This document shows positions 4,010 through 62,640 of a DNA stretch of 64,000 bases, piece by piece (position 1 is the first letter of the stretch; each line of letters starts with the position of its first letter). The notes beneath the pieces were generated by a model, which was not told the DNA's origin, did no database searches, and worked only from the letters and a program-made list of their open reading frames with translations. The DNA is from Bdellovibrionales bacterium (GTDB taxonomy: Bacteria > Bdellovibrionota > UBA1018 > CAIMNF01): NCBI GenBank assembly GCA_947502835.1, contig CANNBJ010000002.1, forward strand, positions 475,396-539,395, written 5' to 3'. Made by a program: the position numbers and the translations under genes.

Positions 4010-4786
4010 ATGCGCGTCACTGTTTTGGGCTGCGGCACCTCGACCGGCGTCCCGTTGATTCACTGTTCTTGCAAAGTGTGTCGATCGAGGAATCCGAAAA
4101 ACAAACGACTTCGAGCTTCGATCTGGGTTGAGGTGGACGGCCTCAGTTTACTCGTGGATGTCTCGCCCGACTTCAGACAGCAGGCGCTTCGAGCACGGAT
4201 TCCGGCAATCGATGCGATCCTCCTCACGCATCCTCATGCCGATCATATTGGCGGGCTCGACGAGATCCGGAGTTACAACTACATCCAGAACAAAGTCATT
4301 CCGGCCTACGGGCACGAATGGAGTCTGCGTGAATTGCCGGCTCGGTTCCCGTATCTTTTTTCCGGAGAAAAACCGGAGGGCGGCGGCATCGCAAAGATTG
4401 AGCTTCGTCCCTTCGGACTCCGGGATTCCGGATTTGAACTTGGTGGAGTGAAGGTCATTCCGATCGAGCTCGATCACGGATCGCAAAAAGTCGCCGGATT
4501 CCGGGTTGGCAATTTTGCGTACCTCACCGATTGCAATTCCATCCCGGAGGAGTCCTTTCAGCGTCTCGAGGGTCTTTCGGTTTTGTTGTTGGATTGTTTG
4601 CGCCTGGATCGGCATGCCACGCATTTGAATCTGGAGGCGGCCATCAATTACTCTCATAGAATCGGAGCCAAGCGCACCTATTTCACCCACCTCGGGCATG
4701 ATTTCGACTACGTTGCGGCTTCACGGAAGCTGCCGGAAAAGCATGGTTTGGCCTATGATGGCCAAGTCATTCATGTTAGAAGATGA
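4010..4786 (+). CDS. MBL-fold metallo-hydrolase (PhnP-like)
   Basis: MRVTVLGCGTSTGVP..., an HPHADHIGG (HxHxDH) motif and a CxC...C cluster near the N-terminus. The upstream part of ORF 3737..4786 is antisense to the epimerase gene. Confidence 0.8.
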   Translation: MRVTVLGCGTSTGVPLIHCSCKVCRSRNPKNKRLRASIWVEVDGLSLLVDVSPDFRQQALRARIPAIDAILLTHPHADHIGGLDEIRSYNYIQNKVIPAYGHEWSLRELPARFPYLFSGEKPEGGGIAKIELRPFGLRDSGFELGGVKVIPIELDHGSQKVAGFRVGNFAYLTDCNSIPEESFQRLEGLSVLLLDCLRLDRHATHLNLEAAINYSHRIGAKRTYFTHLGHDFDYVAASRKLPEKHGLAYDGQVIHVRR

Positions 4787-4811
4787 GGCTCAAAAGTTCA
4801 AAGGAGTCTCT

Positions 4812-5918
4812 ATGATCGTAGGCGTTCCAAAGGAAATCAAAAACAAGGAAAATCGCGTATCCATGGTGGTCGCGGGAGTGAGGGCACTCACCCAGGCCGG
4901 CCACAAGGTTCTGGTGCAGGCAAGTGCCGGCTTGGGTGCCGGGATTACCGATCAGGAGTACGCGGCCGCCGGAGCGACGATCATCGAAACTGCGAAAGAT
5001 GTTTTCGCCAAAGCCGACATGATTGTGAAGGTGAAAGAGCCGCTCCCTGAAGAGTACGATCTCCTTCGGGAAGGCCAGATTCTTTACACCTACTTGCATC
5101 TTGCGGCAGACGAGCGTCTCACAAAGGCGCTTCTCGACCGGAAGATCGTCGGAATCGCCTACGAAACCATTCAGCCAGCGGACATGTCTCTTCCCCTGCT
5201 TGCGCCGATGAGTGCGGTCGCGGGTCGCATGGCGACCCAGATCGGTGCCACTTATCTGCAAAAAGATCACGGTGGGAAAGGGATGCTGCTCGGTGGGGTT
5301 ACCGGAGTTGCCCGTGCCAATGTCACCATTCTCGGTGGCGGGGTCGTCGGCGTGAATGCCGCCAAGATGGCCGTGGGTCTGGGCGCCAAAGTGACCATTC
5401 TTGATGTGAATGTGGATCGTTTGGAGTATCTGAACGACATTTTTGGAAATTCGATCCACACGCTCTATTCGAACAACGAACAGATCGAAAGATCCGTGAT
5501 CGAGTCGGATCTTGTGATCAGCGCGATCCTTGTGCCGGGCGCGAAGGCTCCGAAGCTCGTGACCCGTCAAATGGTGTCCCGAATGCAGCCGGGTGGCGTG
5601 ATCATCGATGTGGCGGTGGATCAGGGCGGGGCGGTCGAAACCTGCCGGCCCACCTCGCACGAGCATCCAACCTATACGGTGGATAACATCATCCACTATG
5701 CGGTTCCGAACATGCCGGGCGCTGTTCCCCGCACTTCGACCTATGCGCTGACGAATGTGACCCTGAAGTACGCGCTCATGCTCGCCAATCTCGGTTGGAA
5801 AGAGGCCGTCTCCAAGGATCCGGCCCTCTACAAGGGTGTGAATCTTTCCCACGGCAAGCTCACTTATCGTGCTGTGGCTGAGGATCTGGGGTTGCCTTAC
5901 GAAGCCCTCAAGATCTAA
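4812..5918 (+). CDS. ald: Alanine dehydrogenase
   Basis: [16 protein letters not shown]..., and [28 protein letters not shown] (NAD-binding GxGxxG). Length is ~368 aa. AAGGAG lies upstream of the ATG at 4812. Confidence 0.9.
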
Positions 5919-15161: not shown

Positions 15162-16736
15162 GTGAAAGCACGCACTATGCAAAAAATTTTGAAAATCCTG
15201 CGTCTGGAAACGCTCTCCGAGCTTTGTCTGATCTTACTCAGCTTCGTTCTATTTATGGCGAAATCCTGGGAGAATTCCATTCATAGCGTTGATTCGGCAT
15301 TGCATGCCCGATTGGCTCTTGAGGTGACCAAGAATGGATGGGTGCCCGCTTTGCCGATGCCCTCGTATGGTGCTCTCGATCCCAGACCTTTTTTCAATGA
15401 CCAGCCGTTCACCCTGTTTTATTTTGTCGGCCAATGGATGCGGCTTTTGGGTCCAGATGCATGGTCCGCACGATTCATTCCTGGTCTTTTCGGGGTTGCA
15501 ACAATCTACCTGCTTCTCTTGATTGGAAGAAAGTATTTTGGCAGGGCTGTTGGTTTCGGGGCTGCATTGATTCTCATGCTAACGCCGATGTTTCTCCAAG
15601 CATCAGCTCGATTTCAACTTGATCCCAGCATGACCTTCTTTATTTTGCTTTCCTTCTTTTTTTGGTTGAAGCGAAATGATTCAGGGACGGTGGCGAGCGT
15701 CGTAGGTGCGGTACTCTTTAAGGCGCCGACGGGTCTTCTGGTTCTCCCTGCTGGGTTTTTGTGTGATTTACTCCGCTCAAGGGGGTTCACTCTCTCTTCG
15801 ATCCGTCGGGTCTTAACGATTTCTTTCTTCTCGATCTTGTTCATTTTACTGTTTTGGTGGATGGTCAATCGAATCGCGGGACAAGATCTTTTTTTGGACT
15901 ATTTTCAGCGGCAGGTTTGGGGGACTTCGGTAAATGGCCGGTTTGAAGACCGCCAGTATGATTCGTTGTTCTTCTTCAAGGTTTTTGTTCGGCAGCTTTG
16001 GCTTTGGATTTTGATTCTGTTGTTCGGGCTCGGGTACCGACTATTCAAGCGGGATTTGAGTTTTTCCCTGGAGGAATTCAGAAGCGAGCCATTTTATCTT
16101 TCATGCGCCATGACTGTGGTCCTTGTGTTGGTGGTGTCTGCGGTTCGGTTTCAGGCAGTAAATTATTTCATGCCTGCCTTTCCGTTTATAGCTCTGATCC
16201 TTGCTCTTTTGATTCAGAATGTGATCTCGCGATTTTGGGTGTGGATGGAGAATTTCGTCGTCCATGCGACTCCCATCACCATGTTTGCCCTATTGATTTT
16301 TCCAGTAACCCTCGGTCCTGAAATGATGCCTGCCTTTCGTCATTTTGCCCCGTTCATCCAGACTGCAGGAGATTGCTCAGACTCAGTCATGTTCATCGAT
16401 GGAAATTTGTATGGCGGGAAGAATACTTATTTTTGCCAGATCGCCTTCTATACGGGAAGAAAGGTGCTTCCAAGCTCTTGTGATCAGGCGTTGGAATTGA
16501 TTCATGAAAGGAAACCAGCATGGATCCTGCTCTCGGGGAACGATCAAGTGAATTGCTTGAAGAATCAAGAGCTCTCCGAATATGTGACCCGAATTCAATT
16601 TGGATCCCAGTATTTATGGGGGATTTATCCCGTTGGTAGATCCCAATTTGATTTGACGCCTCTGCTCAGGCAGCTCGAGCCCCCCTTGGATTGTAAGCCA
16701 AAAGAATTGAGAGACAGTCCTTGGCTGAGGCTCTAG
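15162..16736 (+). CDS. ArnT/PMT-type (GT39/GT83-like) integral-membrane glycosyltransferase
   Basis: ~12 predicted TM segments. The N-terminal region (...DSALHARLALEV...PFFNDQPFTLFYFVGQWM...) resembles the lipid-carrier-dependent ArnT/dolichyl-phosphate-mannose transferase family. The start could be the internal MQKIL. Confidence 0.6.
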   Translation: MKARTMQKILKILRLETLSELCLILLSFVLFMAKSWENSIHSVDSALHARLALEVTKNGWVPALPMPSYGALDPRPFFNDQPFTLFYFVGQWMRLLGPDAWSARFIPGLFGVATIYLLLLIGRKYFGRAVGFGAALILMLTPMFLQASARFQLDPSMTFFILLSFFFWLKRNDSGTVASVVGAVLFKAPTGLLVLPAGFLCDLLRSRGFTLSSIRRVLTISFFSILFILLFWWMVNRIAGQDLFLDYFQRQVWGTSVNGRFEDRQYDSLFFFKVFVRQLWLWILILLFGLGYRLFKRDLSFSLEEFRSEPFYLSCAMTVVLVLVVSAVRFQAVNYFMPAFPFIALILALLIQNVISRFWVWMENFVVHATPITMFALLIFPVTLGPEMMPAFRHFAPFIQTAGDCSDSVMFIDGNLYGGKNTYFCQIAFYTGRKVLPSSCDQALELIHERKPAWILLSGNDQVNCLKNQELSEYVTRIQFGSQYLWGIYPVGRSQFDLTPLLRQLEPPLDCKPKELRDSPWLRL

Positions 16737-18661: not shown

Positions 18662-18671
18662 ATCTCTTCTG

Positions 18672-18737
18672 ACTGGCATCTTTGAGTGGGCATGGCCTTC
18701 GCAAATCTAAACGCCATGCCCGATCAAAGATGCCAGT
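18672..18737. terminator. Long hairpin between convergent fdx and serpin genes (probable bidirectional terminator)
   Basis: ACTGGCATCTTTGAGTGGGCATGGC (18672-18696) pairs with GCCATGCCCGATCAAAGATGCCAGT (18713-18737). Arms are 25 nt with 2 central mismatches and a 16 nt loop. Confidence 0.55.
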
Positions 18738-18748
18738 GAGAGGTTCCT

Positions 18749-19963
18749 TCACTCTGGTGAGTGGATTCTGCCCATGAAGTAGATCTCATGGCTCTCGCGA
18801 TTGGCGAGCAGGAACAGAAACGGCTGGTCACAGTGGAAGGGCGTGTTCGCTTTCATAGTGAAGCTTGTGGTTTCCATCGTGAGAGCCGTGGCAGCGGCCG
18901 CAGTGGTCCCCTCCTCGTCGACATCGATGGATACAGCTTGAATGACATCGCCCAGGCTGAACTCCAGGCCTGGATTCAGCGATTTCCATTCCCCCGGAGT
19001 GAACAACTTCCCGTACCCTGCAAGAGAGAGGTCGTTCTTGAGGGAGGTCTTTTCATTGACCTTGAACTTAGGAAGAACCAGTTCCACCCGTTCGTCTTTC
19101 ATTTTTGCGAGTGTATCATCCACAAGAGTGGCATCGATCCTGGCTTCCACGCTCTTCAGATCGAAGTCTTTCTTTGGAAGAACCAGAACCATCGCGAGCG
19201 GTGAGTCCTTATAGGGGAGTTCGAGCCATTTTGAAATCTCGTTCTCATGGTATTTGAATGAATGAACCTGTCGCATCATCATGGGGGAGGAGCTTTCGGA
19301 TGGAGAGCTGCGGAAGGTTCCGTTCGCCGTTTCATTCTTCCGGAAGGGGGAAGTCCAGCTCCCCTTGAAGTACAAGGTGTTTACGGCCAGAAACGGCACT
19401 TTCGGATCGAGAGTTTCCAGAAGAACGGGAATCCTCCCCTCGGTCCGGGACTTCACCCATTGGTTCATTTCCTTCAGGTCGAGGGTATGGACTTCTGCGG
19501 AGAGAGCATGCAGGGACTCAAGGAATTCCGGTCTCAGATTTTTTTTCTCTTTCAGCCAGATGGAGTTTGCGATCAGGAGACGTGATGGGGAGTCCTTTGC
19601 CGAGCCGAGGCGTTTGGCAAGATCCCGCTCACCTTTGAAACGATCGGATTCCTTGGTCGTGAATCCGAAGCCTGTTTCCAAGGCGAGCCGGGCCTGCTCT
19701 CCGGCCATGGGATAGACCATCTCGAGCGCCATCTTCAGGCTCAGGGGCGAAAGGGCGAGGTTTCTTGGTTGGCCCGAATGCATTTTCATGATCTGAAAGG
19801 GAGCCTCGCCCTTTGAGATCCGGACCGGGGCCGGGTAATCGGAGCCCTTGATGGTGCCACTCGATGCAATCGGGGCTTCGGCTTCCTCAACCGGAGAGGC
19901 CTCCTCTTTGCGTGTGCAAGAAAGGAGAGAGAGCAGGATGAGCAGGGAGATCAGGGTTTTCAT
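18749..19963 (-). CDS. Serpin-family protein, probable lipoprotein
   Basis: MKTLISLLILLSLLSC lipobox; serpin hinge EEGTTAAAATA; C-terminal FHCDQPFLFLLANRESHEIYFMGRIHSP serpin signature. Confidence 0.85.
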   Translation of the reverse strand: MKTLISLLILLSLLSCTRKEEASPVEEAEAPIASSGTIKGSDYPAPVRISKGEAPFQIMKMHSGQPRNLALSPLSLKMALEMVYPMAGEQARLALETGFGFTTKESDRFKGERDLAKRLGSAKDSPSRLLIANSIWLKEKKNLRPEFLESLHALSAEVHTLDLKEMNQWVKSRTEGRIPVLLETLDPKVPFLAVNTLYFKGSWTSPFRKNETANGTFRSSPSESSSPMMMRQVHSFKYHENEISKWLELPYKDSPLAMVLVLPKKDFDLKSVEARIDATLVDDTLAKMKDERVELVLPKFKVNEKTSLKNDLSLAGYGKLFTPGEWKSLNPGLEFSLGDVIQAVSIDVDEEGTTAAAATALTMETTSFTMKANTPFHCDQPFLFLLANRESHEIYFMGRIHSPE

Positions 19964-19983
19964 GGGTTCTTTTGTAGCACGGA

Positions 19984-20823
19984 TCAAGGGTTTGTGTGAG
20001 ATCCAACCTGCGACTTCGGATCCAGAATATCCCGGAGCGAATCACCCAGGAAATGAAACCCGAGCATGGTGAGGAAGAGGGCAAGTCCCGGAAAAATCAT
20101 GAGGTGTGGGTAGCTCAGCATGCCCCGGAACCCTTCATTGGCCAGTGTTCCCCAGCTTGCATAGGGGGGTTGAAGTCCAAGACCAATGAAGGAGAGGAAA
20201 CTTTCGGTCAGGATGTTGTTTGGAATCTGGAAGGTAAGGGAAACAATCATGGGTCCCATCAGGTTCGGAAGAATGTGCTGAAAGAGAATCCGCACCGGAG
20301 TCAGCCCGATCGCGCGCCCCGCCTCAACGTAGGGAAGTTCGCGTGCCTGAAGAACCAAGGCCCGGACGAGACGGGCCTGGGTCACCCAAGTGGTCATTCC
20401 GATCGAAATGAAGATCCCGAAGAAGCCCCGCCCGAAGAGCAAGGAGAGGAGAATCGCAAGGAGAAGCATCGGAAAGATATAAAAAATGTCGACCACGGCC
20501 ATGATCATCCGGTCCGTTCGCCCGCCGAAAAATCCCGCAAGCGCTCCTGTCAGGGTGCCAAGGATGAGGGAAAATCCCGCGGTACAGAATCCGACGGCAA
20601 GGGAAACGCGCGCACCGAAAAGAACCCTGCTGAACAGATCGCGTCCGAGGACATCTGTTCCCATCAGGAAGCCGGGTGCGGGTGCAGCCAGATTGGGCCC
20701 GACGCCGACCTCGTCGTAGGGAAAGGGCGCGATCATCGAAGCGAGGAGCGCCATGAGGCAAAGGGTTCCGAGGAGAATCGCACTTCCCACAAAGCGCTTG
20801 TCGGAGAGGTAGCGATTCCTCAT
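19984..20823 (-). CDS. Peptide/nickel-type ABC transporter permease (OppC/DppC-like)
   Basis: Six TM segments and an EAGRAIGLTPVRILFQHILPN EAA-loop motif. Confidence 0.85.
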   Translation of the reverse strand: MRNRYLSDKRFVGSAILLGTLCLMALLASMIAPFPYDEVGVGPNLAAPAPGFLMGTDVLGRDLFSRVLFGARVSLAVGFCTAGFSLILGTLTGALAGFFGGRTDRMIMAVVDIFYIFPMLLLAILLSLLFGRGFFGIFISIGMTTWVTQARLVRALVLQARELPYVEAGRAIGLTPVRILFQHILPNLMGPMIVSLTFQIPNNILTESFLSFIGLGLQPPYASWGTLANEGFRGMLSYPHLMIFPGLALFLTMLGFHFLGDSLRDILDPKSQVGSHTNP

Positions 20824-24303: not shown

Positions 24304-25114
24304 AAGCGTTGTTCATGATTTCCCCGAAGCCGCCGCCCCCGGGTACGATGTATTGGTTTTCGTTCAAGCCCTTTTCCCGGTCCCAGTGGGTGCCTGGAAT
24401 GGTTTCGAGGATCGCGGGCTCGGAAAGACCTCGGTCAAGGCGGATTGCATAAATTTCAAGTTCGGGGCACGCACGGGTCACTTTTTTCAGATACTCGGGG
24501 GTGACAATGCAGTGGAGCGCGATCCAGCGTTTTGCTGACCCGTACTTGCGATACAGCTCGAGCGTCTCAACCACGGTGGCTCCGGTCGCACCCATGGGGT
24601 CGGGGATCAGAACGTAGGCACCGTCCACGGGCCCACCAATCTTGTGTCCGGAGACCAGGCTGCCCGTCACATGGTGGGACGAATCCGTTTGACGGGCGAT
24701 GCTGATGTGGTCCTGGCGCACTTGTGCCGGATCGAGAAGGTAGTTCAGGGTCTGATAGCAGATCATCGAGGGCAGGGTGCCTGCACGTGCAAGATTCACA
24801 CTGATCGCCCGGGTTTCCGGGGCAAGGGCCTGATGTTCGAATTCGCCTTCCGGATGCTCCGTGCTCATGCGCGAACGGGTGGTGCAGGTTTCTTGTGGAA
24901 ATTCACGATTGATCACGGTTCGAACCAGCGATGTGTAGATCTGGCTTACGAGTTCGTTGATGAGAGGCTGAGTAGTCACAGCAGAGCAGAGCCGCGCAAG
25001 CTGAGTAGTCAGAAAGGGATCCGAAAGCAGGTGAACGCGCGGACCGTAGCGATGATCTTGTTCCGAAAGCGTGTAGGGGAGCTTCTGATGTGCGGAATCC
25101 CTATGCGGTTTCAT
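24296..25114 (-). CDS. Uracil phosphoribosyltransferase family protein (long form)
   Basis: LIPDPMGATGATV PRPP loop and C-terminal YIVPGGGGFGEIMNNAY, the equivalent of the UPRT YIVPGLGDAGDR motif. Confidence 0.7.
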   Translation of the reverse strand: MKPHRDSAHQKLPYTLSEQDHRYGPRVHLLSDPFLTTQLARLCSAVTTQPLINELVSQIYTSLVRTVINREFPQETCTTRSRMSTEHPEGEFEHQALAPETRAISVNLARAGTLPSMICYQTLNYLLDPAQVRQDHISIARQTDSSHHVTGSLVSGHKIGGPVDGAYVLIPDPMGATGATVVETLELYRKYGSAKRWIALHCIVTPEYLKKVTRACPELEIYAIRLDRGLSEPAILETIPGTHWDREKGLNENQYIVPGGGGFGEIMNNAYV

Positions 25115-25760
25115 TCTTTTCGGGATTTTTTTGGATCAGTTTTGACTTCGGGAAAAGCCCGGTTTGGAACGAGGTGATCGTATTGGGCTCATGGCAAAAC
25201 CGGCAGCGGGCTTCGTAATAATCATGAGCCCCGACCAGCACTTGCTCCTCCGTGGTTGCGCCACTCGGTTCCGCTTCGCCCACCAGGCGTTGGGACCGGG
25301 TGGCAGGTTCGCCGCACACCATGCAGACCGCGGAAAGTTTTGTCACATGCTCTGCGATTGCCAGAAGCTTTGGCATGGGTCCGAAGGGCTGGCCCCGGAA
25401 GTCCATGTCGAGTCCGGCACAGATCACGCGAGTTCCACGGTAGGCAAGCTTCTGTGCAACGTCCACGAGGGTTTCATCAAAGAACTGGGATTCATCAATC
25501 CCAACCACGCGGGTGTTGTCTTCGACCTTCTCGAGAATTTCGAGAGCGGACGTCACGGGAGTCGAAGCGATCTTATTGGCATCGTGGCTTTGCACATGAT
25601 CGACACTGTAGCGTTGATCAATGACGGGCTTGAAGACCTGGATCTTTTGCTTGGCGTACTGGGCGCGTTTCAATCGCCGCATGAGTTCCTCGGTCTTGCC
25701 GCTGAACATGCTCCCGCACACCACTTCCACCTGTCCGTTCTGCAAATTCCCCATCGCCAT
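25101..25760 (-). CDS. tdk: Thymidine kinase
   Basis: GSMFSGKTEELMRR P-loop and a C-terminal Zn ribbon, CMVCGEPA...CRFCH. Confidence 0.9.
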   Translation of the reverse strand: MAMGNLQNGQVEVVCGSMFSGKTEELMRRLKRAQYAKQKIQVFKPVIDQRYSVDHVQSHDANKIASTPVTSALEILEKVEDNTRVVGIDESQFFDETLVDVAQKLAYRGTRVICAGLDMDFRGQPFGPMPKLLAIAEHVTKLSAVCMVCGEPATRSQRLVGEAEPSGATTEEQVLVGAHDYYEARCRFCHEPNTITSFQTGLFPKSKLIQKNPEKNETA

Positions 25761-25813
25761 AGGTCCCTAGGGGTATCGAACTTCGGGCCTGTTCGTCAAC
25801 TGGCGGATCCTGA

Positions 25814-26016
25814 ACAAACTGGTCCCTTTGAGTGGGCACGGACATCAATGGACTCACTAGAAGCTGTTTGGAATGATTGAATTTTGGTCTCCGAGCCGCG
25901 TCCTGCGGCCTCGCTTTTGTCAATCCTGACTCGCGAGAGTCGACCAAAACTCAATCATTCCAAACAGCTCCCGGCTAATCCACTTAGGTCTGTGCCCACT
26001 CAAAGGGGCCAGTTTG
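25814..26016. repeat. Nested palindromic (MITE-like) element R1
   Basis: The outer arms ACAAACTGGTCCCTTTGAGTGGGCAC (25814-) and GTGCCCACTCAAAGGGGCCAGTTTGT (-26016) pair. The inner 27-nt arms 25863-25889 / 25942-25968 have 1 mismatch. The 52-nt core at 25890-25941 is shared in reverse complement with 27715-27766. Confidence 0.85.
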
Positions 26017-26153
26017 TGATCTCTTGCATGCAGACAGGCAGCCTAAGGGTGCAGTGGGAGTAATCTTCATTGAAAGCAGTTTTTCTCAAGTATCTGTAAT
26101 TGTTGCTGTTTAATTTATTTCACCTATTTAAATACACATATTATAATGAGTCA

Positions 26154-26654
26154 GTGGAGATCGATCTTAAGCGCCTAAGAGGTACATTTCGGTTAACCCA
26201 GGTTGAACTCGCTCATGAGAGCGGTGTCAGCCTGCCCACCATTCAAAAAATCGAATCAGGACAAGGAAATCCCACGATCGAGATTCTGGAAAAGATCCTC
26301 TCTGCACTCGGTCTTCGGGTTCAGCTAAAATGTGAGGAATTCAATGTGGGTCGGGCCATTTCCCTCGGGGTGCCGCTGACGGGCAAAAGGGATCCCGGAG
26401 CCCCTCCGTCGAAAGAGGCGCTCAGGATCGAATCACGGAAGTGGATCCACCAAGTGTTGGGGGGGCAGCTACGCGAGCGGGATGAAGCCGCAATCTGGGC
26501 CGTATTTCTCGCGCTGAAAATTCACTTTCCCAAAGTATATTCGGAGTTCATTGCCTCCCGCGAGGTGGAAGATGCATTGAAAGAAAAATCGAGAGAGGGA
26601 AAAATCATCAAGCTCTATCGAATTGCTCTTGCTGAAGTGAGTCAGTACCTGTGA
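26154..26654 (+). CDS. XRE-family HTH protein with uncharacterised C-terminal domain
   Basis: LKRLRGTFRLTQVELAHESGVSLPTIQKIESGQGNPTIEILEKILSALGL is a classic XRE/Cro HTH. A GTG at 26154 gives a normal N-terminus; the ORF track starts at TTG 26100. The stop overlaps the next gene's start (GTGA). Confidence 0.75.
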   Translation: MEIDLKRLRGTFRLTQVELAHESGVSLPTIQKIESGQGNPTIEILEKILSALGLRVQLKCEEFNVGRAISLGVPLTGKRDPGAPPSKEALRIESRKWIHQVLGGQLRERDEAAIWAVFLALKIHFPKVYSEFIASREVEDALKEKSREGKIIKLYRIALAEVSQYL

Positions 26655-27178
26655 ATCCAAGGACATTGAAAAAATTCATTGAAATCGCCTCCGACCGCCT
26701 GACTGGAGAGTGGGTTGTGATCGGAGGAACGGTGCTTCCCATTCTTGGAGTCGAGTATCGAGTCACACTTGATATTGACCTCATCAGGATTCGTGAAAAA
26801 GAGGGCAATTCAGATTCATTGATCTTGATGGAGATTGCCGAACAAATCGGTTTGCCAATTGAAGCAGTGAATCAGGCCGGGGCTTATTTTTTTTCCAAGG
26901 TGGAAAATGCGAACGATCATCTCGTCATTCTGAGGAAAGGGAGCAAGTGCACCATCTACCGACCGGACGTTTGGTTATATATTGCGCTGAAGTTGGGTCG
27001 GTTTACGGAAACTGATCTTGAGGATTGTTTGCTCATGATCAAGCATCTGGATGAAGAGTTTCAGTCTCAAAAAGCGGGCATCATTCAATTGATTCAAGGA
27101 AAGATCAAAGCCTCCAAATCCGGAAGCGATCAGTGGCTGAACCGTGTACATGAGCTCCTAAAAAGATGCCAGAAGTAG
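26651..27178 (+). CDS. Hypothetical protein, possible minimal nucleotidyltransferase fold (AbiEii/MNT-like)
   Basis: WVVIGGTVLPILG ... VTLDIDLI resembles the GG[ST]...DxD pattern of Pol-beta-superfamily NTases. It is translationally coupled to the HTH gene. The assignment is tentative. Confidence 0.4.
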   Translation: MNPRTLKKFIEIASDRLTGEWVVIGGTVLPILGVEYRVTLDIDLIRIREKEGNSDSLILMEIAEQIGLPIEAVNQAGAYFFSKVENANDHLVILRKGSKCTIYRPDVWLYIALKLGRFTETDLEDCLLMIKHLDEEFQSQKAGIIQLIQGKIKASKSGSDQWLNRVHELLKRCQK

Positions 27179-27205
27179 GCTTTAAAGAAATTTAGTGAAA
27201 AACCC

Positions 27206-27631
27206 ATGAATCCTACAAAACCCCATAGTTCCAAGGTCCGAAAACCCACTCCTTTTGAATTCGTCTTGGATGAATTGTCCGCCCTGGACCTTCACACCCG
27301 TCCGATGTTCGGCTGCACTGCGGTTTATATTGGAAGCAAGATCGTACTTGTTCTTCGAAAGAAGGCGAATACGGATCAGGATACAGGGATCTGGGTGTGC
27401 ATTCCCGACGAGCATGTTGCCGTGATGAAAGAGCGCTTTGGAATGTTACGGGGAGTGAGCTTCTTTGAAGATCCGGACTCCGCGTGGCAGGTTTTGCATG
27501 AAACCGATCCTGCATTCGAAGAGACGGCGCTTCAGTTTTGCTCCATGATCAAAAAAGGGACCCCGCTGATTGGCAGGGTCCCGAAGCAAAAAAAGACAAG
27601 GGTGAAGCGGAGAATAAAAGCAATCAAATAG
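27206..27631 (+). CDS. Hypothetical protein, possible TfoX N-terminal-like domain
   Basis: RPMFGCTAVYIGSKIVLVLRKK resembles the MFGG.G.Y..G..FA core of TfoX_N-type domains. Basic C-terminal tail (KQKKTRVKRRIKAIK). Confidence 0.35.
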   Translation: MNPTKPHSSKVRKPTPFEFVLDELSALDLHTRPMFGCTAVYIGSKIVLVLRKKANTDQDTGIWVCIPDEHVAVMKERFGMLRGVSFFEDPDSAWQVLHETDPAFEETALQFCSMIKKGTPLIGRVPKQKKTRVKRRIKAIK

Positions 27632-27651
27632 CAGTCATATGCTACAAATTC

Positions 27652-27834
27652 GCCCTAAGTTTGGATAGGGGTCCAAGGTATATGGGAAGTCCTCAGAGTC
27701 AGATGAATTTGGCCGACTCTCGCGAGTCAGGACAGACGACAGCGAGGCCGCAGGATGCGGCTCGGAGGCCAAATTCATCTGACTCTGAGGACCATGCCCT
27801 GTTTCCCTTGAAGCTCCATACACAACCTTAGGGC
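27652..27834. repeat. Nested palindromic (MITE-like) element R2, inverted relative to R1
   Basis: Perfect 24-nt arms: CCTCAGAGTCAGATGAATTTGGCC (27691-27714) / GGCCAAATTCATCTGACTCTGAGG (27767-27790). The 52-nt core at 27715-27766 is the reverse complement of the R1 core apart from a central 9-nt patch and 1 further substitution. CTAAGTTT occurs at both outer borders (27656-27663, 27834-27841). Confidence 0.85.
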
Positions 27835-27843
27835 TAAGTTTAC

Positions 27844-28440
27844 TCAGTCCTTGATCTTGATGCTGAGAATCTTCACATCCTGATTCGGGCGATCCATTTC
27901 GTTGCGGGCTACCTTGGAGATCTTGTTCACCACGTCCATTCCTTCCGTCACTTCGCCGAAAATCGTGTGGCGTCCGTTGAGATGGGGAGTCGGAGCAACG
28001 GTGATGAAAAACTGGGACCCATTGGTGTTCGGGCCGGAGTTCGCCATCGCAAGGATTCCTGGTTTTGCAAAACTGTCGAGCGGGCCCACTTCATCCTGAA
28101 ACTGGTAGCCCGGGCCTCCGATTCCCTGTCCGAGCGGATCTCCACCCTGAATCATGAAATCCGGAATGACCCGATGAAAGATGGTGCCCGTGTAAAGGGA
28201 TTTGCCTTTCATCGTCTTGCTCGACTTCGGGTCGGTCCATTCTTTTTTACCGCTGGCAAGGCCTGTGAAGTTATCAACCGTAATGGGTGCCTTGTCCTTG
28301 AAAAGGGTGACGGTGATTTTCCCCATCGAGGTGGTGATGATCGCACTCGGGTTCTTCGCAGGTTTTGCGGAAGTCGCTTTTTCTGCAAACACAGGGTTGG
28401 AGAACAGAGCTAATGTCAAAGCAAGAAGTTGAGTTTTCAT
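27844..28440 (-). CDS. Peptidyl-prolyl cis-trans isomerase (cyclophilin type), secreted
   Basis: Signal peptide MKTQLLALTLALFSNPVFA; FHRVIPDFMIQGGDP and MANSGPNTNGSQFFIT cyclophilin motifs. Confidence 0.9.
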   Translation of the reverse strand: MKTQLLALTLALFSNPVFAEKATSAKPAKNPSAIITTSMGKITVTLFKDKAPITVDNFTGLASGKKEWTDPKSSKTMKGKSLYTGTIFHRVIPDFMIQGGDPLGQGIGGPGYQFQDEVGPLDSFAKPGILAMANSGPNTNGSQFFITVAPTPHLNGRHTIFGEVTEGMDVVNKISKVARNEMDRPNQDVKILSIKIKD

Positions 28441-28483: not shown

Positions 28484-29971
28484 TCATGCCTTTTTTGGCG
28501 GTTCCAGGCGCGGAAACAGCACCGGAGGATCCGAGAGGGTGTAGGTCTTCGGTGCAAGATCGAGGGTACCCGGTTTCATTCCGACAGAGGCGAGGGCCTT
28601 CGAGCCGGTCTCCGGCAAAAACGCAGCCAGAACTTGTGACACCACATCAATTCCGTAAAGCCCGTTGTACATGACCTCGATGAATTTTTTGCGGGATTCG
28701 GGATCCTCGTCCTTCAGACTCCAGGGGGCTTGGTCATTGATGTATCCGTTCACGCGATTCACTTCGGACCAGAGCCGGTCAAGCGCGCGATGATGTTCAC
28801 GCTTTTCCATATGCTCGTTCATTTCTTGGATGAAGGAGGAGAAATCAAATGCGATCGGCAGCCCCGCAGAGGGGATCGAATCGCCGATTCGCTTGCGGGC
28901 GAGCTTCACGACCCGCATGAGCAGATTTCCATAATCATTTCCGAGCTCCGACTGGTGGCGCTTCAGCAGGTCCTCGAGGACAAACGCACCATTGCTGTTC
29001 GAAGGGATCGCACGCAAGATGTAGTAGCGCATGGAATCGAGGGGCACCTTTGCCAGAACATCGAGTGGGTCGACTCCGTTGCCCAGGCTCTTCGACATTT
29101 TCCGGCCGTCGGCCGCGAGGACCATTCCGTGCACATAAATTTGCTTGGGAAGCGGAAGCCCCGCTGCGTGAAGCATGATCGGCCAGATCACCGCGTGGAA
29201 CCAGAGGATGTCCCGCCCGATCACGTGGGTGTCATTGGGCCAATTCCCTCCCGGTGCGGATGCCGTGTAGTAGTTGATGAGGGCGTCGAACCATGTGTAG
29301 ATCACGAATTCGGGCCTGCCCGGTACGGGAATCCCCCAGCCTTTCGCAGGACGGGTGATCGAAAGATCGCGCATGGGTTCACTCTCCAGGCGTGAAAGGA
29401 TTTCTTTTCTCGAGAGGTCCGGGTTCACGAATCCGGGATTTGCCTGGATGTGTTCGATGATCCATTTCTGGTACTGCCCGGTCTTGAGAAAAAAGCCCTT
29501 TTCAAGCACCTTGTCGAGGGGCTTGTAGTGCGCAGGACACTTGCCGTCCGGTGCTTGCAGATCGGTGTAATAGGCTTCGCAGTTGCCACAATAGAGACCC
29601 TCGTACTCGCCAAAATAAATGTCGCCCTTGTCTTCAAGGATCTTCCAGATCTTGTGGGTCGCCTCTTGGTGACGTGGCTCGCTCGTGCGGATGAATTCAT
29701 CATAGGAAATATTGAGCTTCGAGCAGAACTCGCGGAAGAGGGCCACATTCTGGTCCACGAAATCGCGTGTCGGAAGGCCCGCGCCCTCGGCACTTTTCAC
29801 GAGGTTCTGTCCGTTCTCGTCAGTGCCGGTCAGGAAGTACACCTCATGACCATTCAAGCGATACCAGCGGGCATAGGAGTCGGTGACGATCTTTTCGTAG
29901 GCATGCCCCATGTGGGGGGCTCCGTTCGGATAGTCGATTGCGGTGGTAATGGAAAATCGCGTTTTGGTCAT
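28484..29971 (-). CDS. metG: Methionine--tRNA ligase (short form)
   Basis: PNGAPHMGHAYE (HIGH-type) and KMSKSLGN (KMSKS) motifs, plus a CGNCEAYY...CP Zn knuckle. Confidence 0.9.
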   Translation of the reverse strand: MTKTRFSITTAIDYPNGAPHMGHAYEKIVTDSYARWYRLNGHEVYFLTGTDENGQNLVKSAEGAGLPTRDFVDQNVALFREFCSKLNISYDEFIRTSEPRHQEATHKIWKILEDKGDIYFGEYEGLYCGNCEAYYTDLQAPDGKCPAHYKPLDKVLEKGFFLKTGQYQKWIIEHIQANPGFVNPDLSRKEILSRLESEPMRDLSITRPAKGWGIPVPGRPEFVIYTWFDALINYYTASAPGGNWPNDTHVIGRDILWFHAVIWPIMLHAAGLPLPKQIYVHGMVLAADGRKMSKSLGNGVDPLDVLAKVPLDSMRYYILRAIPSNSNGAFVLEDLLKRHQSELGNDYGNLLMRVVKLARKRIGDSIPSAGLPIAFDFSSFIQEMNEHMEKREHHRALDRLWSEVNRVNGYINDQAPWSLKDEDPESRKKFIEVMYNGLYGIDVVSQVLAAFLPETGSKALASVGMKPGTLDLAPKTYTLSDPPVLFPRLEPPKKA

Positions 29972-59316: not shown

Positions 59317-59670
59317 ATGGCTTCTGAGAATATGACAAAAAAGATCGACCCTTTATACACCATTTTCGAGCAACACCTCTTCAATTTTCAAGATCCGAAT
59401 GCCGATCGGGGCACCTTCGTGGAGGGGATCGTCAAGGAATACATCGCGCACCTTCGGAGCGTGGGTCTGTCGGTTCCGATGGAATGGCAGGAGCACATTT
59501 TCGAAGAATTGTTCTTTCAAGTGAACTCAATGCTCGTTAAGAAGATATACGGATGTCACACGATCGACGAATACACCGCCAAAGCGACGACGGCGCAGAA
59601 GCAGCGGGCGAAGGCTCAATACAAAAAGTTCCAGAGCGCAACCCGGAAGCCGAAGAAGGAAGCCGCCTAA
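59317..59670 (+). CDS. Hypothetical small protein with basic C-terminus
   Basis: 117-aa ORF with protein-like composition. No recognisable motif. Confidence 0.4.
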   Translation: MASENMTKKIDPLYTIFEQHLFNFQDPNADRGTFVEGIVKEYIAHLRSVGLSVPMEWQEHIFEELFFQVNSMLVKKIYGCHTIDEYTAKATTAQKQRAKAQYKKFQSATRKPKKEAA

Positions 59671-60821
59671 GCCCTGCTCCCCTGAAGGTCGCACTCGTCC
59701 ATGACTGGTTGAATGGAATGCGTGGAGGCGAGATCGTATTTGAGGCGCTTTTGGACCTCTATCCGGATGCCGATGTCTTCACCCTGATCCATGAGCCGCG
59801 CAAGCTCTCGTCTTCTTTGCAAAAGAAGCTCGCGAGAACCCGGGTTCACGCATCTTTTTTGAATGTTCTGAAGTTCACCCGCTCGCGCTACCGGCAGTTG
59901 CTTCCGATTCTGCCTTTTGCGATCCGGTCCTTTGATTTGTACCCCTATGATTTGATTGTTTCATCCTCTCATTGCGTGGCAAAGGGGGTACGGAAGCATC
60001 CGGAGGCGGTTCATGTCAGCTACCTTCACGCTCCGATGCGCTATATGTGGGATCGGTTTCAGGATTATTTCGGGAAGGGGCGGATTCATCCTCTGTTTCG
60101 ATGGATCGCACTTTTGGTAAGGCCCTTTTTGCAAGCATGGGATCGCAGGACTGCGGCTAAGGACCGGGTAGATGTGCTTTTAGCCAATAGTAATTTCATC
60201 GGGGAGCAGATTCGTCGCTGTTATTGTCGCGAGGCGCGTACGATTTATCCCTTTGCGAGGCTTGATCGCTTTAAGCGGGAGCGACGGCCCGGGAGCTTTT
60301 ACCTGATGGTCGGAGCCTTTGCGCCCTACAAGAGGACCGATCTTGCGATCGAGGCCTTTGCGCGCCTTGGGCTTCCGCTCAAAATCGTCGGTTCAGGGCA
60401 GGATGAGGAGCGTCTTCGGGATCTTCGGGATTCGTTGAGGGCGAGAAACGTGGAATTCATCAGGAATGCCAGCAATGACGAAATCGAGCGTCTGTATTCC
60501 GAGTGCAAGGCCTTTATCTTTCCGGGGGTGGAGGATTTCGGCATTACGCCGCTTGAGGCGATGGCCTCGGGCGCACCGGTGATTGCCTTTGGTGAGGGTG
60601 GGGCCTGCGAGACGGTCACGCCTGAGACGGGGATTTTGTTTTCTGCGCAGACGGTCGAGAGTCTTTGCAATGCGGTGATGGACCTTGAGAGCGGGAGGCG
60701 GCATTTTTTTGAGAACTCCTGCCGCGCGCGTGCCGCATTCTTTACGGAATCGCGCTTCAAGGAAGAGATTCAGAGTGCGGTCCGGGATGCGCAAAAACTC
60801 ATTGCATCAGCACCTTTTTGA
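59553..60821 (+). CDS. GT4-type glycosyltransferase (start codon unresolved)
   Basis: The family-typical sequence begins at KVALVHDWLNGMRGGE (~59685). A C-terminal EDFGITPLEAMASGAPVIAF (E-x7-E type) motif is present. The only canonical in-frame start upstream is ATG 59553, which overlaps the previous ORF by 118 nt. A CTG at 59682 would give MKVALVHDW. Confidence 0.75.
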   Translation: MSHDRRIHRQSDDGAEAAGEGSIQKVPERNPEAEEGSRLSPAPLKVALVHDWLNGMRGGEIVFEALLDLYPDADVFTLIHEPRKLSSSLQKKLARTRVHASFLNVLKFTRSRYRQLLPILPFAIRSFDLYPYDLIVSSSHCVAKGVRKHPEAVHVSYLHAPMRYMWDRFQDYFGKGRIHPLFRWIALLVRPFLQAWDRRTAAKDRVDVLLANSNFIGEQIRRCYCREARTIYPFARLDRFKRERRPGSFYLMVGAFAPYKRTDLAIEAFARLGLPLKIVGSGQDEERLRDLRDSLRARNVEFIRNASNDEIERLYSECKAFIFPGVEDFGITPLEAMASGAPVIAFGEGGACETVTPETGILFSAQTVESLCNAVMDLESGRRHFFENSCRARAAFFTESRFKEEIQSAVRDAQKLIASAPF

Positions 60822-62451: not shown

Positions 62452-62640
62452 CACCTTCATTCGCCTACCAATAGCCTGAATCGCTTATGCGCAGACATCT
62501 CCCTTTGGATGAGATGCTTCCTCCTCGAACCTCCTGTTCTTTTCGCTCTCGCCATCGTGGCTCGCTCAAAAAGTCGGAACCATCTCATCCAAAGGGAGCG
62601 AGCGCGCATCCGGGAGTCGGATGGTAAGCGAATGAAGGTG
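62452..62640. repeat. Nested palindromic element R3 (MITE-like or structured RNA)
   Basis: Outer arms are CACCTTCATTCGCCTACC (62452-) / GGTAAGCGAATGAAGGTG (-62640), with 1 mismatch. Inner arms CTCCCTTTGGATGAGATG (62499-62516) / CATCTCATCCAAAGGGAG (62581-62598) are perfect. Length is 189 bp. Confidence 0.75.

What the first reader, a model, noticed from the sequence alone, without database searches (positions are those of the whole stretch)
25814..27834. AT-richer three-gene cassette bracketed by two inverted copies of a structured repeat
Between the core genes tdk and ppiase lie three plus-strand genes: an XRE-HTH protein, a coupled nucleotidyltransferase-like protein and a TfoX-N-like protein. 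The neighbouring genes on both sides are on the minus strand. The base composition of the cassette looks AT-richer than the surroundings. It is flanked on each side by a ~185-200 bp nested palindrome (R1 25814-26016, R2 27652-27834) in opposite orientation. The layout resembles MITE-flanked mobilisation units or a cassette with structured recombination sites. No transposase or integrase is present in the cassette. This is my best candidate in the window for an undescribed accessory module.
Basis: partly seen in the sequence, partly recalled or inferred. Interest (0 to 1): 0.7.

Follow-up and report, generated by a model that had tools for sequence, protein, structure and literature searches.

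The report
Toxin–antitoxin-like pair flanked by hairpin repeats
A lineage-specific block in a Bdellovibrio-like genome holds a probable toxin–antitoxin pair (an HTH repressor and a small AbiEii-like nucleotidyltransferase) plus an unrelated small gene, and the two hairpin repeats beside it are separate insertions of a dispersed repeat family, not the borders of a mobile cassette.

Summary
Three plus-strand genes lie between minus-strand tdk and a cyclophilin gene. Their GC is 0.47 against 0.53 for the window. R1 and R2 are ~200-nt hairpins in opposite orientation.

The mobile-cassette reading does not hold.
- R1 and R2 share only a ~56-66-nt core; their arms differ.
- Relatives that carry the genes have R2 but no R1. 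One relative has lost the third gene and half of R2.
- Family members lie in unrelated intergenic spots, including the metG-tdk spacer of a relative that lacks the cassette.
- More distant relatives have metG next to tdk, so the cyclophilin gene is part of the variable block.

The functional unit is two genes. An XRE-HTH protein (166 aa) with a conserved C-terminal domain is translationally coupled to a 175-aa DUF6036 nucleotidyltransferase. The enzyme carries counterparts of the four AbiEii/MenT motifs (the fourth lacks its basic residue). The pair recurs in four unrelated contexts without the third gene or the repeats. The most likely function is an AbiE/MenAT-like toxin–antitoxin or abortive-infection module; this is inferred, not shown.

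The third gene is a stand-alone protein with a weak YdhG/TfoX-N-like fold.

The repeat family has an invariant three-way-junction core and strongly covarying stems. It has no Rfam match and is the most unusual by-product.

The parts
25101..25760 (-). tdk (thymidine kinase), conserved flank
   Evidence: Pfam TK, E 2e-54. Syntenic with upp-like and hpt genes in all Bdellovibrionota relatives.
25761..25805 (-). tdk upstream region with a -35-like TTGACG (25794-25799). Retained in all relatives; the variable DNA begins just beyond it.
   Evidence: Alignment of tdk upstream regions of 7 genomes.
25814..26017 (-). R1: full-length hairpin repeat with its core on the minus strand. Present in the window lineage; absent from L002 and L108-110; L111 has a short remnant.
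26119..26147 (+). Promoter-like site TTCACC-17-TATAAT for the HTH-NTase operon. The 10-bp palindrome TATTTAAATA lies in the spacer and is a candidate operator. The -10 box ends 6 nt before the start codon, so the mRNA is probably leaderless.
   Evidence: Promoter scan, 10 of 12 matches. The stretch is conserved in L002, L108 and L111. The operator role is inferred.
26154..26654 (+). XRE-family HTH protein (166 aa) with a conserved ~100-aa C-terminal domain; candidate antitoxin and autorepressor.
   Evidence: Pfam HTH_3, E 1.6e-13. NCBIfam antitoxin-type HTH subfamilies score below their cut-offs. The C-terminal domain is conserved in partners of distant NTase homologues.
26651..27178 (+). 175-aa DUF6036 nucleotidyltransferase, AbiEii/MenT-like; candidate toxin or effector. 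Its GTG start overlaps the HTH stop codon (GTGA).
   Evidence: Pfam DUF6036 at 24.2 bits against a cut-off of 23.6. Weak AbiEii hits in Pfam and PADLOC. Invariant G25 G26, R37 T39 D41 (D43), K114 R117, D122 D125. AF2 pLDDT 92.9. Junction sequence.
27206..27631 (+). 141-aa protein of a widespread stand-alone family with a weak YdhG/DUF1801/TfoX-N-like fold. Not part of the conserved pair.
   Evidence: Deleted in L112.
27652..27834 (+). R2: full-length hairpin repeat with its core on the plus strand, between the convergent third gene and the cyclophilin gene. Orthologous copies in L002 and L108-110; half deleted in L112.
27844..28440 (-). Secreted cyclophilin-type PPIase. It belongs to the lineage-specific block, not to the conserved flank.
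   Evidence: Pfam Pro_isomerase, E 7e-50. Absent between metG and tdk in L003-L013.
28484..29971 (-). metG, the conserved flank on the other side of the variable block.
   Evidence: Directly adjacent to tdk (~90-96 nt) in L003-L006.
62495..62602 (-). Divergent ('type B') member of the same repeat superfamily elsewhere in the window.
   Evidence: Covariance model, 41.6 bits, E ~3e-8, with matching core architecture.
18671..18739 (.). 68-nt mini hairpin made of the family's terminal motif only, with no core.

Best explanation
The block. The segment between metG and tdk is a ~2.7-kb block specific to one Bdellovibrionales-like clade. It has been inherited vertically within that clade.

The functional unit is a two-gene operon. 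An XRE-type HTH protein with its own conserved C-terminal domain is followed, with a 4-nt start/stop overlap, by a 175-aa DUF6036 nucleotidyltransferase. The enzyme carries the catalytic signature of AbiEii/MenT toxins.

Proposed mechanism (inferred).
- The HTH protein binds the palindrome in its own promoter and keeps the operon low.
- Its C-terminal domain holds the enzyme inactive.
- When the HTH protein is lost or titrated, for example on phage infection or stress, the enzyme transfers nucleotides to a cellular target and stops growth. By analogy with MenT the target would be tRNA 3' ends.

The third gene is an unrelated stand-alone gene.

R1 and R2 are two separate insertions of a dispersed ~200-nt hairpin repeat. 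Each has a conserved three-way-junction core inside a long stem whose sequence differs from copy to copy. They sit in intergenic DNA like MITE/REP-type elements and play no part in moving the genes.
For: Shown.
- The pair recurs in the same order, overlapping by 4 nt or separated by 7 nt, in four unrelated contexts without the third gene or the repeats.
- The C-terminal domain of the HTH partner is conserved across pairs at 32-34% identity.
- The NTase family has invariant GG, then 14 residues, then DxD, with R37 three residues before D41. K114..R117 and D122xxD125 are also invariant. These correspond to AbiEii motifs I-IV as defined in PMC3985639, except that the basic residue before motif IV is missing.
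- The profile aligns this motif region to AbiGII 9hlo and to NTase-like 5uvd.
- There are weak AbiEii hits in Pfam and PADLOC.
- A promoter with a palindrome is conserved among relatives.
- R1 is absent in L002, L108 and L111, which carry the genes.
- R2 and the third gene are deleted in L112 while the pair persists.
- Repeat copies occur in other contexts.
- metG and tdk are adjacent in L003-L006, and the same spacer in L007 holds only a divergent repeat copy.
- Homologues of the third gene stand alone elsewhere.

Inferred: toxicity, neutralisation, autorepression and the tRNA target.
Against: - No experiment or published study covers DUF6036.
- The Pfam AbiEii score is below its gathering cut-off (16.2 against 22.5 bits).
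- Foldseek of a confident model found no NTase in the PDB or BFVD.
- The partner is an XRE HTH, not an AbiEi/COG5340 winged helix.
- The pair has stayed at one locus through the divergence of a clade (NTase down to 64% identity). This fits a domesticated regulator as well as an addiction module.
- The third gene lies 27 nt downstream on the same strand and may be co-transcribed in this clade.
- L111 has a short remnant of the repeat termini at the R1 site. R1 may therefore be old and lost elsewhere, so an ancestral two-repeat state cannot be fully excluded.
Confidence: 0.6

Rival explanations
1. A composite mobile unit. R1 and R2 act as MITE-like ends or structured recombination sites that a trans-acting enzyme uses to move the three genes together.
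For: - Two family members in inverted orientation bracket the three genes.
- MITE-flanked mobilisation units and bcr5-flanked gene clusters are known precedents (PMC3184786).
- The block has lower GC.
- L111 carries a terminal-motif remnant at the R1 site.
Against: - R1 and R2 have different arms and cores that differ at about 11% of positions, so they are not a matched pair.
- Relatives with the genes lack R1.
- The unit was never seen elsewhere: the other eight family copies flank unrelated genes, and other HTH-NTase pairs lack repeats.
- The variable block includes the cyclophilin gene, which lies outside the bracket.
- No flanking direct repeats were recognisable.
- No transposase lies nearby.
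Confidence: 0.06
2. The HTH-NTase pair is not a toxin–antitoxin or defence module. It is a regulator plus an enzyme with a housekeeping or resistance role, for example nucleotidylation of a small molecule or of a protein. Alternatively, the NTase is the protective partner, as in MNT-HEPN systems.
For: - The pair is stably inherited at one locus in the clade.
- The DUF6036 family is small: 349 representatives at 50% identity among 1.84 billion.
- Its function is unknown.
- There is no significant PADLOC hit (best E 0.0016) and no PHROG hit.
Against: - The signature with R in motif II plus K..R and DxxD is specific to AbiEii/DUF1814-type toxins rather than to antibiotic NTases or MNT antitoxins.
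- The HTH-first, overlapping bicistron scattered among unrelated contexts is the typical TA pattern.
- No HEPN partner or Rx4-6H motif is present.
Confidence: 0.25
3. R1 and R2 are functional structured RNAs or DNA structures. They could act as terminators or insulators, as RNase III or RNA-binding-protein sites, or as small RNAs, and would control tdk, the cassette and the cyclophilin gene. On this view they are not selfish repeats.
For: - The 56-nt core is invariant.
- 40 of 63 stem pairs show changes on both sides. 88.7% of cells are paired, against 33-48% in slid controls, and 0 of 500 shuffles reach this.
- Orthologous R2 copies of the window and L108 differ by three compensatory A-T to G-C changes and no disruptive one.
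- The R2 core is ~97% identical between the window and L002, while its flanks are far more diverged.
- The small core helices covary between type A and type B copies.
- Most copies lie at gene 3' ends or just upstream of promoters.
- Both core hairpin loops carry AGGA.
Against: - G.U and A.C mismatches in the stems are equal (47:47). Folding energies favour neither strand consistently, so nothing points to a strand-specific RNA.
- Arms of close inverted repeats can be homogenised by template switching without selection (established knowledge).
- The L002 copy has a decayed arm, and L112 has lost half of R2.
- No U-tract follows the stems.
- There is no Rfam family.
- Orientation relative to neighbouring genes is mixed.
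Confidence: 0.2
4. An integron-like or Xer (dif-module)-like cassette whose folded ends are recombination sites of the attC or pdif type.
For: The ends are imperfect palindromes whose structure is conserved more than their sequence, as in attC sites.
Against: - There is no integrase or Xer gene in the region.
- By eye, the ends show no RYYYAAC/GTTRRRY boxes.
- The most conserved part is the apex, whereas in attC the apex is the variable part.
- The sites are inverted rather than direct.
- Copies occur singly in ordinary intergenic DNA.
Confidence: 0.02

Closest known systems
AbiE (AbiEi/AbiEii) and MenAT type IV toxin–antitoxin / abortive-infection systems (DUF1814 NTase toxins; PMC3985639, PMC7450476, PMC10435456)
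   Same: - A transcription-factor gene comes first and overlaps an NTase gene by 4 nt.
- The NTase has GG, a long spacer, then DxD, with an arginine in motif II, a K..R motif and a DxxD motif.
- The promoter carries an inverted repeat suited to autorepression.
- The pair is scattered among unrelated genomic contexts.
   Different: - The NTase is about 60% of the size (175 aa against ~290 aa).
- It falls in Pfam DUF6036, not DUF1814/AbiEii, where it scores below the cut-off.
- The partner has an XRE-type HTH and an unrelated C-terminal domain, not the COG5340/AbiEi winged helix.
- Toxicity, GTP binding and a tRNA target are untested.
MNT-HEPN (type VII) modules
   Same: A small 'minimal' Pol-beta-fold NTase in a two-gene module.
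   Different: - No HEPN partner or Rx4-6H motif is present.
- The gene order and the HTH partner differ.
- In those systems the NTase is the antitoxin.
Bacterial MITEs and structured intergenic repeats (Correia/nemis, Chunjie, Nezha, bcr1 of the Bacillus cereus group, ERIC, REP/BIME; review PMC3184786)
   Same: - About 200 nt, non-coding and intergenic.
- The whole element folds into a very stable hairpin (-100 to -150 kcal/mol).
- Presence or absence differs between close relatives.
- Compensatory changes keep the fold, as reported for bcr1.
- Decayed and truncated copies exist.
   Different: - The most conserved part is an asymmetric ~56-nt apical three-way junction.
- The 26-31-bp stem next to it is different in every copy.
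- No target-site duplication was recognised.
- No parent IS or transposase was recognised.
- Copy number is low: three or four per 64 kb here, and five exact-core hits in the JGI metagenome collection.
MITE-flanked mobilisation units (IMU-integron; bcr5-flanked clusters; PMC3184786)
   Same: Two copies of a structured repeat on either side of a small gene set.
   Different: - The copies are not a matched pair.
- The unit is not found elsewhere.
- Relatives have the genes with one copy or half a copy.
- No target duplication surrounds the unit.
YdhG/DUF1801, VP1028/TfoX-N and YjbR-like small alpha/beta proteins (PDB 2oc6, 2od0, 2fki)
   Same: The third protein's confident model (pLDDT 90) is nearest to these folds. 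Twenty-four of 36 family members give weak TfoX_N hits.
   Different: - The similarity is weak: Foldseek E 0.04, TM ~0.4, and Pfam scores far below the cut-off.
- There is no TfoX C-terminal domain.
- The function is unknown.

Membership tests
DUF6036 (Pfam PF19502) nucleotidyltransferases | Score at or above the Pfam gathering cut-off | tested here: met
   24.2 bits against a cut-off of 23.6, E 3.3e-5. Most listed homologues carry precomputed PF19502.
AbiEii / MenT (DUF1814, PF08843) NTase toxins | Pfam PF08843 match above the gathering cut-off | tested here: not met
   16.2 bits against a cut-off of 22.5. PADLOC AbiEii E 0.0016 and 0.012, on the N-terminal motif region only.
AbiEii / MenT (DUF1814, PF08843) NTase toxins | Motifs I-IV: hG[GS]-x15-DhD with Arg in motif II, a Lys/Arg motif III and a +DxxD motif IV (PMC3985639) | tested here: inconclusive
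   G25 G26, then 14 residues, then D41-I-D43; R37; K114..R117; D122xxD125. All are invariant or nearly so in 40 homologues, compared with the definitions read. Differences: the spacing is 14 rather than 15, the residue before D122 is not basic, and the protein is much shorter.
AbiEii / MenT (DUF1814, PF08843) NTase toxins | Growth inhibition by the NTase, relieved by the upstream gene; nucleotide transfer to tRNA or GTP binding | not testable with these tools
   Needs expression and biochemistry.
AbiE-type operon | Antitoxin is a COG5340/AbiEi winged-helix protein | tested here: not met
   The partner matches XRE-type HTH_3/HTH_31 only. No AbiEi family was hit.
AbiE-type operon | Bicistronic, regulator first, overlapping or tightly spaced genes, found in varied contexts | tested here: met
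   GTGA or ATGA overlaps in the window, L085 and L111; a 7-nt gap in L082. Four unrelated contexts besides the tdk locus.
MNT-HEPN type VII TA | Adjacent HEPN-domain partner with an Rx4-6H motif | tested here: not met
   Neither neighbour matches a HEPN family for the whole protein; the only hit is a 12-bit, E 0.26 match of the third protein. The conserved R109 and H124 of the HTH protein are 14 residues apart.
MITE | Short, non-coding, with terminal inverted repeats, folding into a long hairpin | tested here: met
   183-204 nt. Inverted arms run the whole length. A shared terminal motif (~ACTGCCCCNAAGAATGGGTATGG and its inverse) occurs in 5 of 8 copies.
MITE | Multiple dispersed copies with filled and empty sites among relatives | tested here: met
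   Two full copies, one divergent copy and one mini copy in the window. Five further loci in metagenomes. R1 is filled in the window and empty in L002 and L108. L007 is filled and L003-L006 are empty.
MITE | Target-site duplication at the ends | tested here: inconclusive
   No consistent flanking direct repeat was seen. The empty sites are too diverged to place the junctions exactly.
MITE | A parent IS or transposase sharing the terminal repeats | not tested
   None lies next to any copy.
MITE-flanked composite unit (IMU-like) | The same element at both ends, the unit found at more than one site, and a duplication flanking the unit | tested here: not met
   The arms of R1 and R2 are unrelated. 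Relatives have one copy or half a copy. No second site was found.
Integron attC site | R''/R' boxes (RYYYAAC...GTTRRRY), a variable apex, an integrase nearby, direct orientation | tested here: not met
   No boxes were seen at the ends on reading the alignment. The apex is the conserved part. No integrase is present. The copies are inverted.
Any Rfam RNA family | Covariance-model hit at the gathering score | tested here: not met
   There were no hits in the whole window. With E up to 10, only generic hairpin look-alikes appeared (miRNA precursors, 20-27 bits against cut-offs of 73-100).
TfoX_N (PF04993) / DUF1801 | Pfam match above the cut-off, or clear fold identity | tested here: inconclusive
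   13.2 bits against a cut-off of 30.1. Twenty-four of 36 relatives give weak hits, best E 0.011. Foldseek best hits are 2oc6 and 2od0, E 0.04, probability 0.82-0.85, TM ~0.4.

The most novel reading that the evidence does not exclude
The hairpin repeats (R1, R2 and their relatives) could be a previously undescribed class of structured nucleic-acid element in Bdellovibrionota. The element has an invariant ~56-nt three-way junction with two small AGGA-loop hairpins. This junction sits on a long helix that must pair but is free in sequence. It would be read in single-stranded DNA or RNA form by a dedicated trans-acting protein, such as a hairpin-recognising transposase or an RNA-binding regulator. 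On this reading the elements are not an ordinary decaying MITE.
Probability: 0.2. Interest if true: 0.65.

Novelty: new variant of a known kind. Interest (0 to 1): 0.4.

Why it matters
The gene pair. If the pair behaves as proposed, it adds a compact, half-size branch with an XRE-type partner to the AbiE/MenAT nucleotidyltransferase toxins. It would also give the orphan Pfam family DUF6036 a testable function. A 175-aa enzyme with all the catalytic motifs would be a convenient minimal model for how these toxins pick and modify their targets.

The repeat family. It is a clean natural case of a long helix maintained by paired changes around an invariant junction. It could reveal either a new mobile-element mechanism or a new regulatory RNA in predatory bacteria.

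Scanning practice. The case shows that two structured repeats on either side of a gene set need not define a mobile unit. Comparing filled and empty sites in relatives settled the question.

Tried and rejected
- Rfam at gathering scores and at E up to 10 gave no family; there were only miRNA-like hairpin look-alikes.
- No tRNA or tmRNA genes are present that could serve as integration targets.
- Hammerhead or another small ribozyme was considered because of the three-way junction and a CUGACGA...GAAA string. It was rejected: the string is not conserved between copies and Rfam's ribozyme models did not hit.
- attC or dif-type sites were rejected (see the membership table).
- A viral-contig scan with a relaxed core pattern gave 15 chance matches, none confirmed by the covariance model. 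There is no sign of a phage link.
- Foldseek of the confident NTase model against the PDB and BFVD gave only meaningless helical matches. The NTase assignment therefore rests on sequence motifs and profile matches.
- PHROGs gave nothing for the NTase or the third protein.
- A homologue search with the C-terminal domain of the HTH protein returned only 4 close relatives, limited by word-index sensitivity.
- A full-text search for DUF6036 returned nothing, and a search for palindromic intergenic repeats in Bdellovibrio returned nothing relevant.
- Strand bias as a test for an RNA was neutral: G.U against A.C is 47:47, and the folding energies of the two strands show no consistent difference.
- A search for target-site duplications was inconclusive.
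- The contig of the P0006 relative could not be read (no DNA returned). Its repeat content is inferred only from gap lengths.
Full report
1. What is there

The window has 53.3% GC. Its tdk protein is 95% identical to that of a Bdellovibrionales MAG (REEB465, locus L002). It is 73-84% identical to those of other Bdellovibrionota/Oligoflexia MAGs.

The layout:
- hpt, a upp-like gene and tdk (25101-25760) on the minus strand
- R1 (25814-26017)
- three plus-strand genes
- R2 (27652-27834)
- a secreted cyclophilin gene (27844-28440) and metG on the minus strand

The segment 26018-27651 has GC 0.471. Windows of the same size across the 64 kb average 0.532 with sd 0.022. This makes it one of the three lowest stretches; the other two are glycosyltransferase genes.

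Both repeats fold far better than shuffled sequence, with z-scores of -9 to -12.

Three corrections apply.
- The HTH gene starts at GTG 26154 (166 aa), where relatives have ATG.
- R1 and R2 share only a central ~56-66 nt, at 89% identity, and their arms are unrelated in sequence.
- The cyclophilin gene is not a fixed neighbour at this locus (see section 2).

2. Is it a cassette bounded by the repeats?

I fetched the tdk locus from related genomes and mapped the window's proteins onto them.

In five MAGs (L003-L007), metG is followed directly by tdk: the spacer is about 90-96 nt in L003-L006, and ~220 nt in L007, where it holds only the repeat copy noted in section 5. L008, L009, L012 and L013 carry other lineage-specific genes in that gap. 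The variable block is therefore the cyclophilin gene plus the three genes. It reaches beyond R2.

Within the window's own clade, the same genes sit at the same place: L002, L108-110, L111 and L112 (tdk 91-95% identical where it lies on the contig). NTase identity there falls to 64%. The block has been inherited vertically for some time.

R1 is missing in those relatives.
- The tdk-HTH spacer is 175-180 nt in L002, L108 and L111, against 393 nt in the window.
- The alignment shows a ~210-nt indel that matches R1.
- The covariance model finds no copy there.
- L111 has a ~65-nt remnant at that spot that resembles the element's termini. R1 may therefore be old and lost elsewhere, or the site may be hit repeatedly.

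R2 is orthologous in L002 and L108-110.

L112 (NTase 90% identical) shows a clean 560-bp deletion equal to window 27214-27773. It removes the third gene together with the left arm and core of R2. HTH-NTase stays intact next to the cyclophilin gene.

None of this fits a unit that needs both repeats.

3. The conserved unit is two genes

The NTase has 63 homologues in the word-indexed search. A profile search of 1.84 billion cluster representatives finds only 349. The family is small and unnamed.

Contexts of distant members all show an upstream ~166-185-aa XRE-HTH gene that overlaps or abuts the NTase gene. These are P0011, P0038 (inside a dTDP-sugar/LPS cluster) and P0023 (beside glycolysis genes). 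None has the third gene. The covariance model finds no repeat in L082-L085.

The HTH partners are 32-34% identical over their full length to the window's protein. This includes a C-terminal domain with invariant residues. The two proteins have travelled together.

In the window, the NTase GTG start overlaps the HTH stop codon (GTGA).

A promoter-like TTCACC-17-TATAAT lies at 26119-26147 and ends 6 nt before the start codon. It contains the palindrome TATTTAAATA. The stretch is conserved in relatives while the rest of the spacer is not.

4. What the proteins are

The HTH protein.
- It matches HTH_3 at E 1.6e-13.
- Below their cut-offs, it matches antitoxin-type HTH subfamilies and defence-associated HTH models in PADLOC.

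The NTase.
- It passes the DUF6036 cut-off narrowly, at 24.2 against 23.6 bits.
- It gives weak AbiEii hits.
- Across 40 homologues the invariant residues are G25 G26, R37 T39 D41 (D43), E71, K114, R117, D122 and D125.
- Dy et al. (PMC3985639, read) define AbiEii/DUF1814 by four features: hG[GS]-x15-DhD, an arginine in motif II, a Lys/Arg motif III and a +DxxD motif IV. Mutating any of these abolished toxicity.
- The present family has counterparts of all four, with a spacing of 14 and no basic residue before motif IV.
- The profile aligns the GG...R.T.D.D stretch to AbiGII (9hlo) and to an NTase-like protein (5uvd).
- The AlphaFold model is confident (pLDDT 92.9). Its strand-GG-helix and strand-DxD arrangement is the one expected for the Pol-beta fold.
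- Foldseek nevertheless returned nothing useful.

On this basis I propose that the pair works like AbiE/MenAT. The upstream regulator would repress the operon and keep the NTase inactive. The NTase would arrest growth by nucleotidylating a target; for MenT that target is tRNA acceptor ends (PMC7450476, PMC10435456). This is inference. The pair is not a member of the AbiE family as defined, because the Pfam cut-off and the AbiEi-type partner are not met.

The third protein.
- It belongs to a broad family with 196 hits.
- Its members stand alone in unrelated contexts.
- Its confident model is nearest, weakly, to YdhG/DUF1801, VP1028 and YjbR.
- Twenty-four of 36 relatives give sub-threshold TfoX_N hits.

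5. The repeats

One exact-pattern scan of the JGI metagenome collection with the shared core found five more copies. All lie in different contexts: two upstream of flagellin genes, and others beside a glycosyltransferase, a lipocalin and an AAA ATPase gene.

Aligning eight copies shows the following.
- A 56-nt core is essentially invariant.
- It is closed by a 26-31-bp stem that is nearly perfect in each copy but different in sequence in every copy.
- In five copies there is an outer stem with a shared terminal motif.

RNAalifold predicts a three-way junction. Forty of 63 pairs change on both sides. 88.7% of cells are paired, against 33-48% when partners are slid. No shuffle out of 500 reaches the observed values.

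A covariance model built from these copies finds more divergent members.
- Window 62495-62602.
- L090 3915-4029.
- L007 5839-5946, which lies in the metG-tdk spacer of a relative without the cassette.
- In these, the small core helices covary (GUC/GAC to GCC/GGC to GGC/GCC; GCCGC/GCGGC to GAAC/GUUC) around conserved unpaired bases.

A 68-nt mini hairpin at 18671-18739 consists of the terminal motif alone.

Orthologous R2 copies of the window and L108 differ by three A-T to G-C double changes and one wobble, with no disruptive change. The L002 copy has a decayed arm.

There is no Rfam match, no member in viral contigs, no adjacent transposase and no recognisable target duplication.

G.U and A.C mismatches are equal at 47:47, and neither strand folds consistently better. 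Nothing therefore points to a strand-specific RNA. Arms of close inverted repeats can also be kept alike by template switching, so covariation here is not proof of selection.

The family is best filed with MITE/REP-type structured intergenic repeats. In bcr1 of Bacillus, compensatory changes are also reported (PMC3184786). The unusual feature here is that the apex is conserved and the stem is free.

6. Verdict

- The accessory, lower-GC nature of the block is real.
- The interpretation as a repeat-bounded mobile cassette is not supported.
- The functional unit is a two-gene, AbiE/MenAT-like HTH-NTase module of the uncharacterised DUF6036 family. I rate it a new variant of a known kind, with function inferred.
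- The repeats are independent members of a dispersed hairpin family. They deserve a separate look.
- Interest is moderate.

Noticed in passing
window 62495-62602 (-): A divergent 'type B' member of the hairpin-repeat superfamily lies between convergent genes (an unnamed 391-aa ORF and a MotB/PDZ gene). It has the same three-way-junction layout, with covarying small helices.
   Followed up: partly
window 18671-18739: A 68-nt hairpin made only of the repeat family's terminal motif lies between a ferredoxin gene and a bacterial serpin gene (18749-19987). It looks like a core-less mini version of the element.
   Followed up: partly
L007 5839-5946: A relative without the cassette or the cyclophilin gene carries a divergent family member in the metG-tdk spacer. 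That spacer is only ~90 nt in L003-L006. The spot just upstream of the tdk promoter seems to be hit repeatedly.
   Followed up: partly
L111 about 4760-4825: A ~65-nt remnant resembling the element's two termini sits at the place where the window has R1.
   Followed up: partly
L112 1074-1178 (= window 27214-27773 missing): A clean 560-bp deletion removes the third gene and the left arm and core of R2, while HTH-NTase is kept. The junction lies at ATGAATCC / TTCA..TGACTC.
   Followed up: yes
L089 1-45 and 262-300; L001 position 1: The end of metagenome contig L089 is the reverse complement of the other flank of its repeat copy. This is probably an assembly fold-back at a palindrome. That flank also resembles part of a type B core, so the copy may be nested in another element. 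The Logan contig L001 starts in the middle of R1, an assembly break at the repeat.
   Followed up: partly
L086 195-308 and L090 1695-1808: Two of the five metagenomic copies sit upstream of flagellin genes; in L086 a TAAAGTT motif follows the copy. Both small hairpins of the core carry AGGA in their loops, which resembles CsrA-type binding sites. This is untested and may be coincidence.
   Followed up: no
window 27557-27582 (-): A terminator-like hairpin with a T-run lies on the minus strand inside the 3' end of the third gene. It could end a cyclophilin transcript that reads through R2. The number of such sites in the region is no more than chance.
   Followed up: no
window 15162-16736 and 59553-60821: The other two low-GC stretches of the window are glycosyltransferase genes (PMT_2-type and GT1). 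They probably belong to surface-polysaccharide loci.
   Followed up: partly
window 25761-25805: tdk keeps a conserved promoter-like stretch (TTGAC[GA] about 35-40 nt before the start codon) in all relatives. The variable DNA begins just upstream of it. In genomes where tdk directly follows metG, tdk may still be transcribed on its own.
   Followed up: partly
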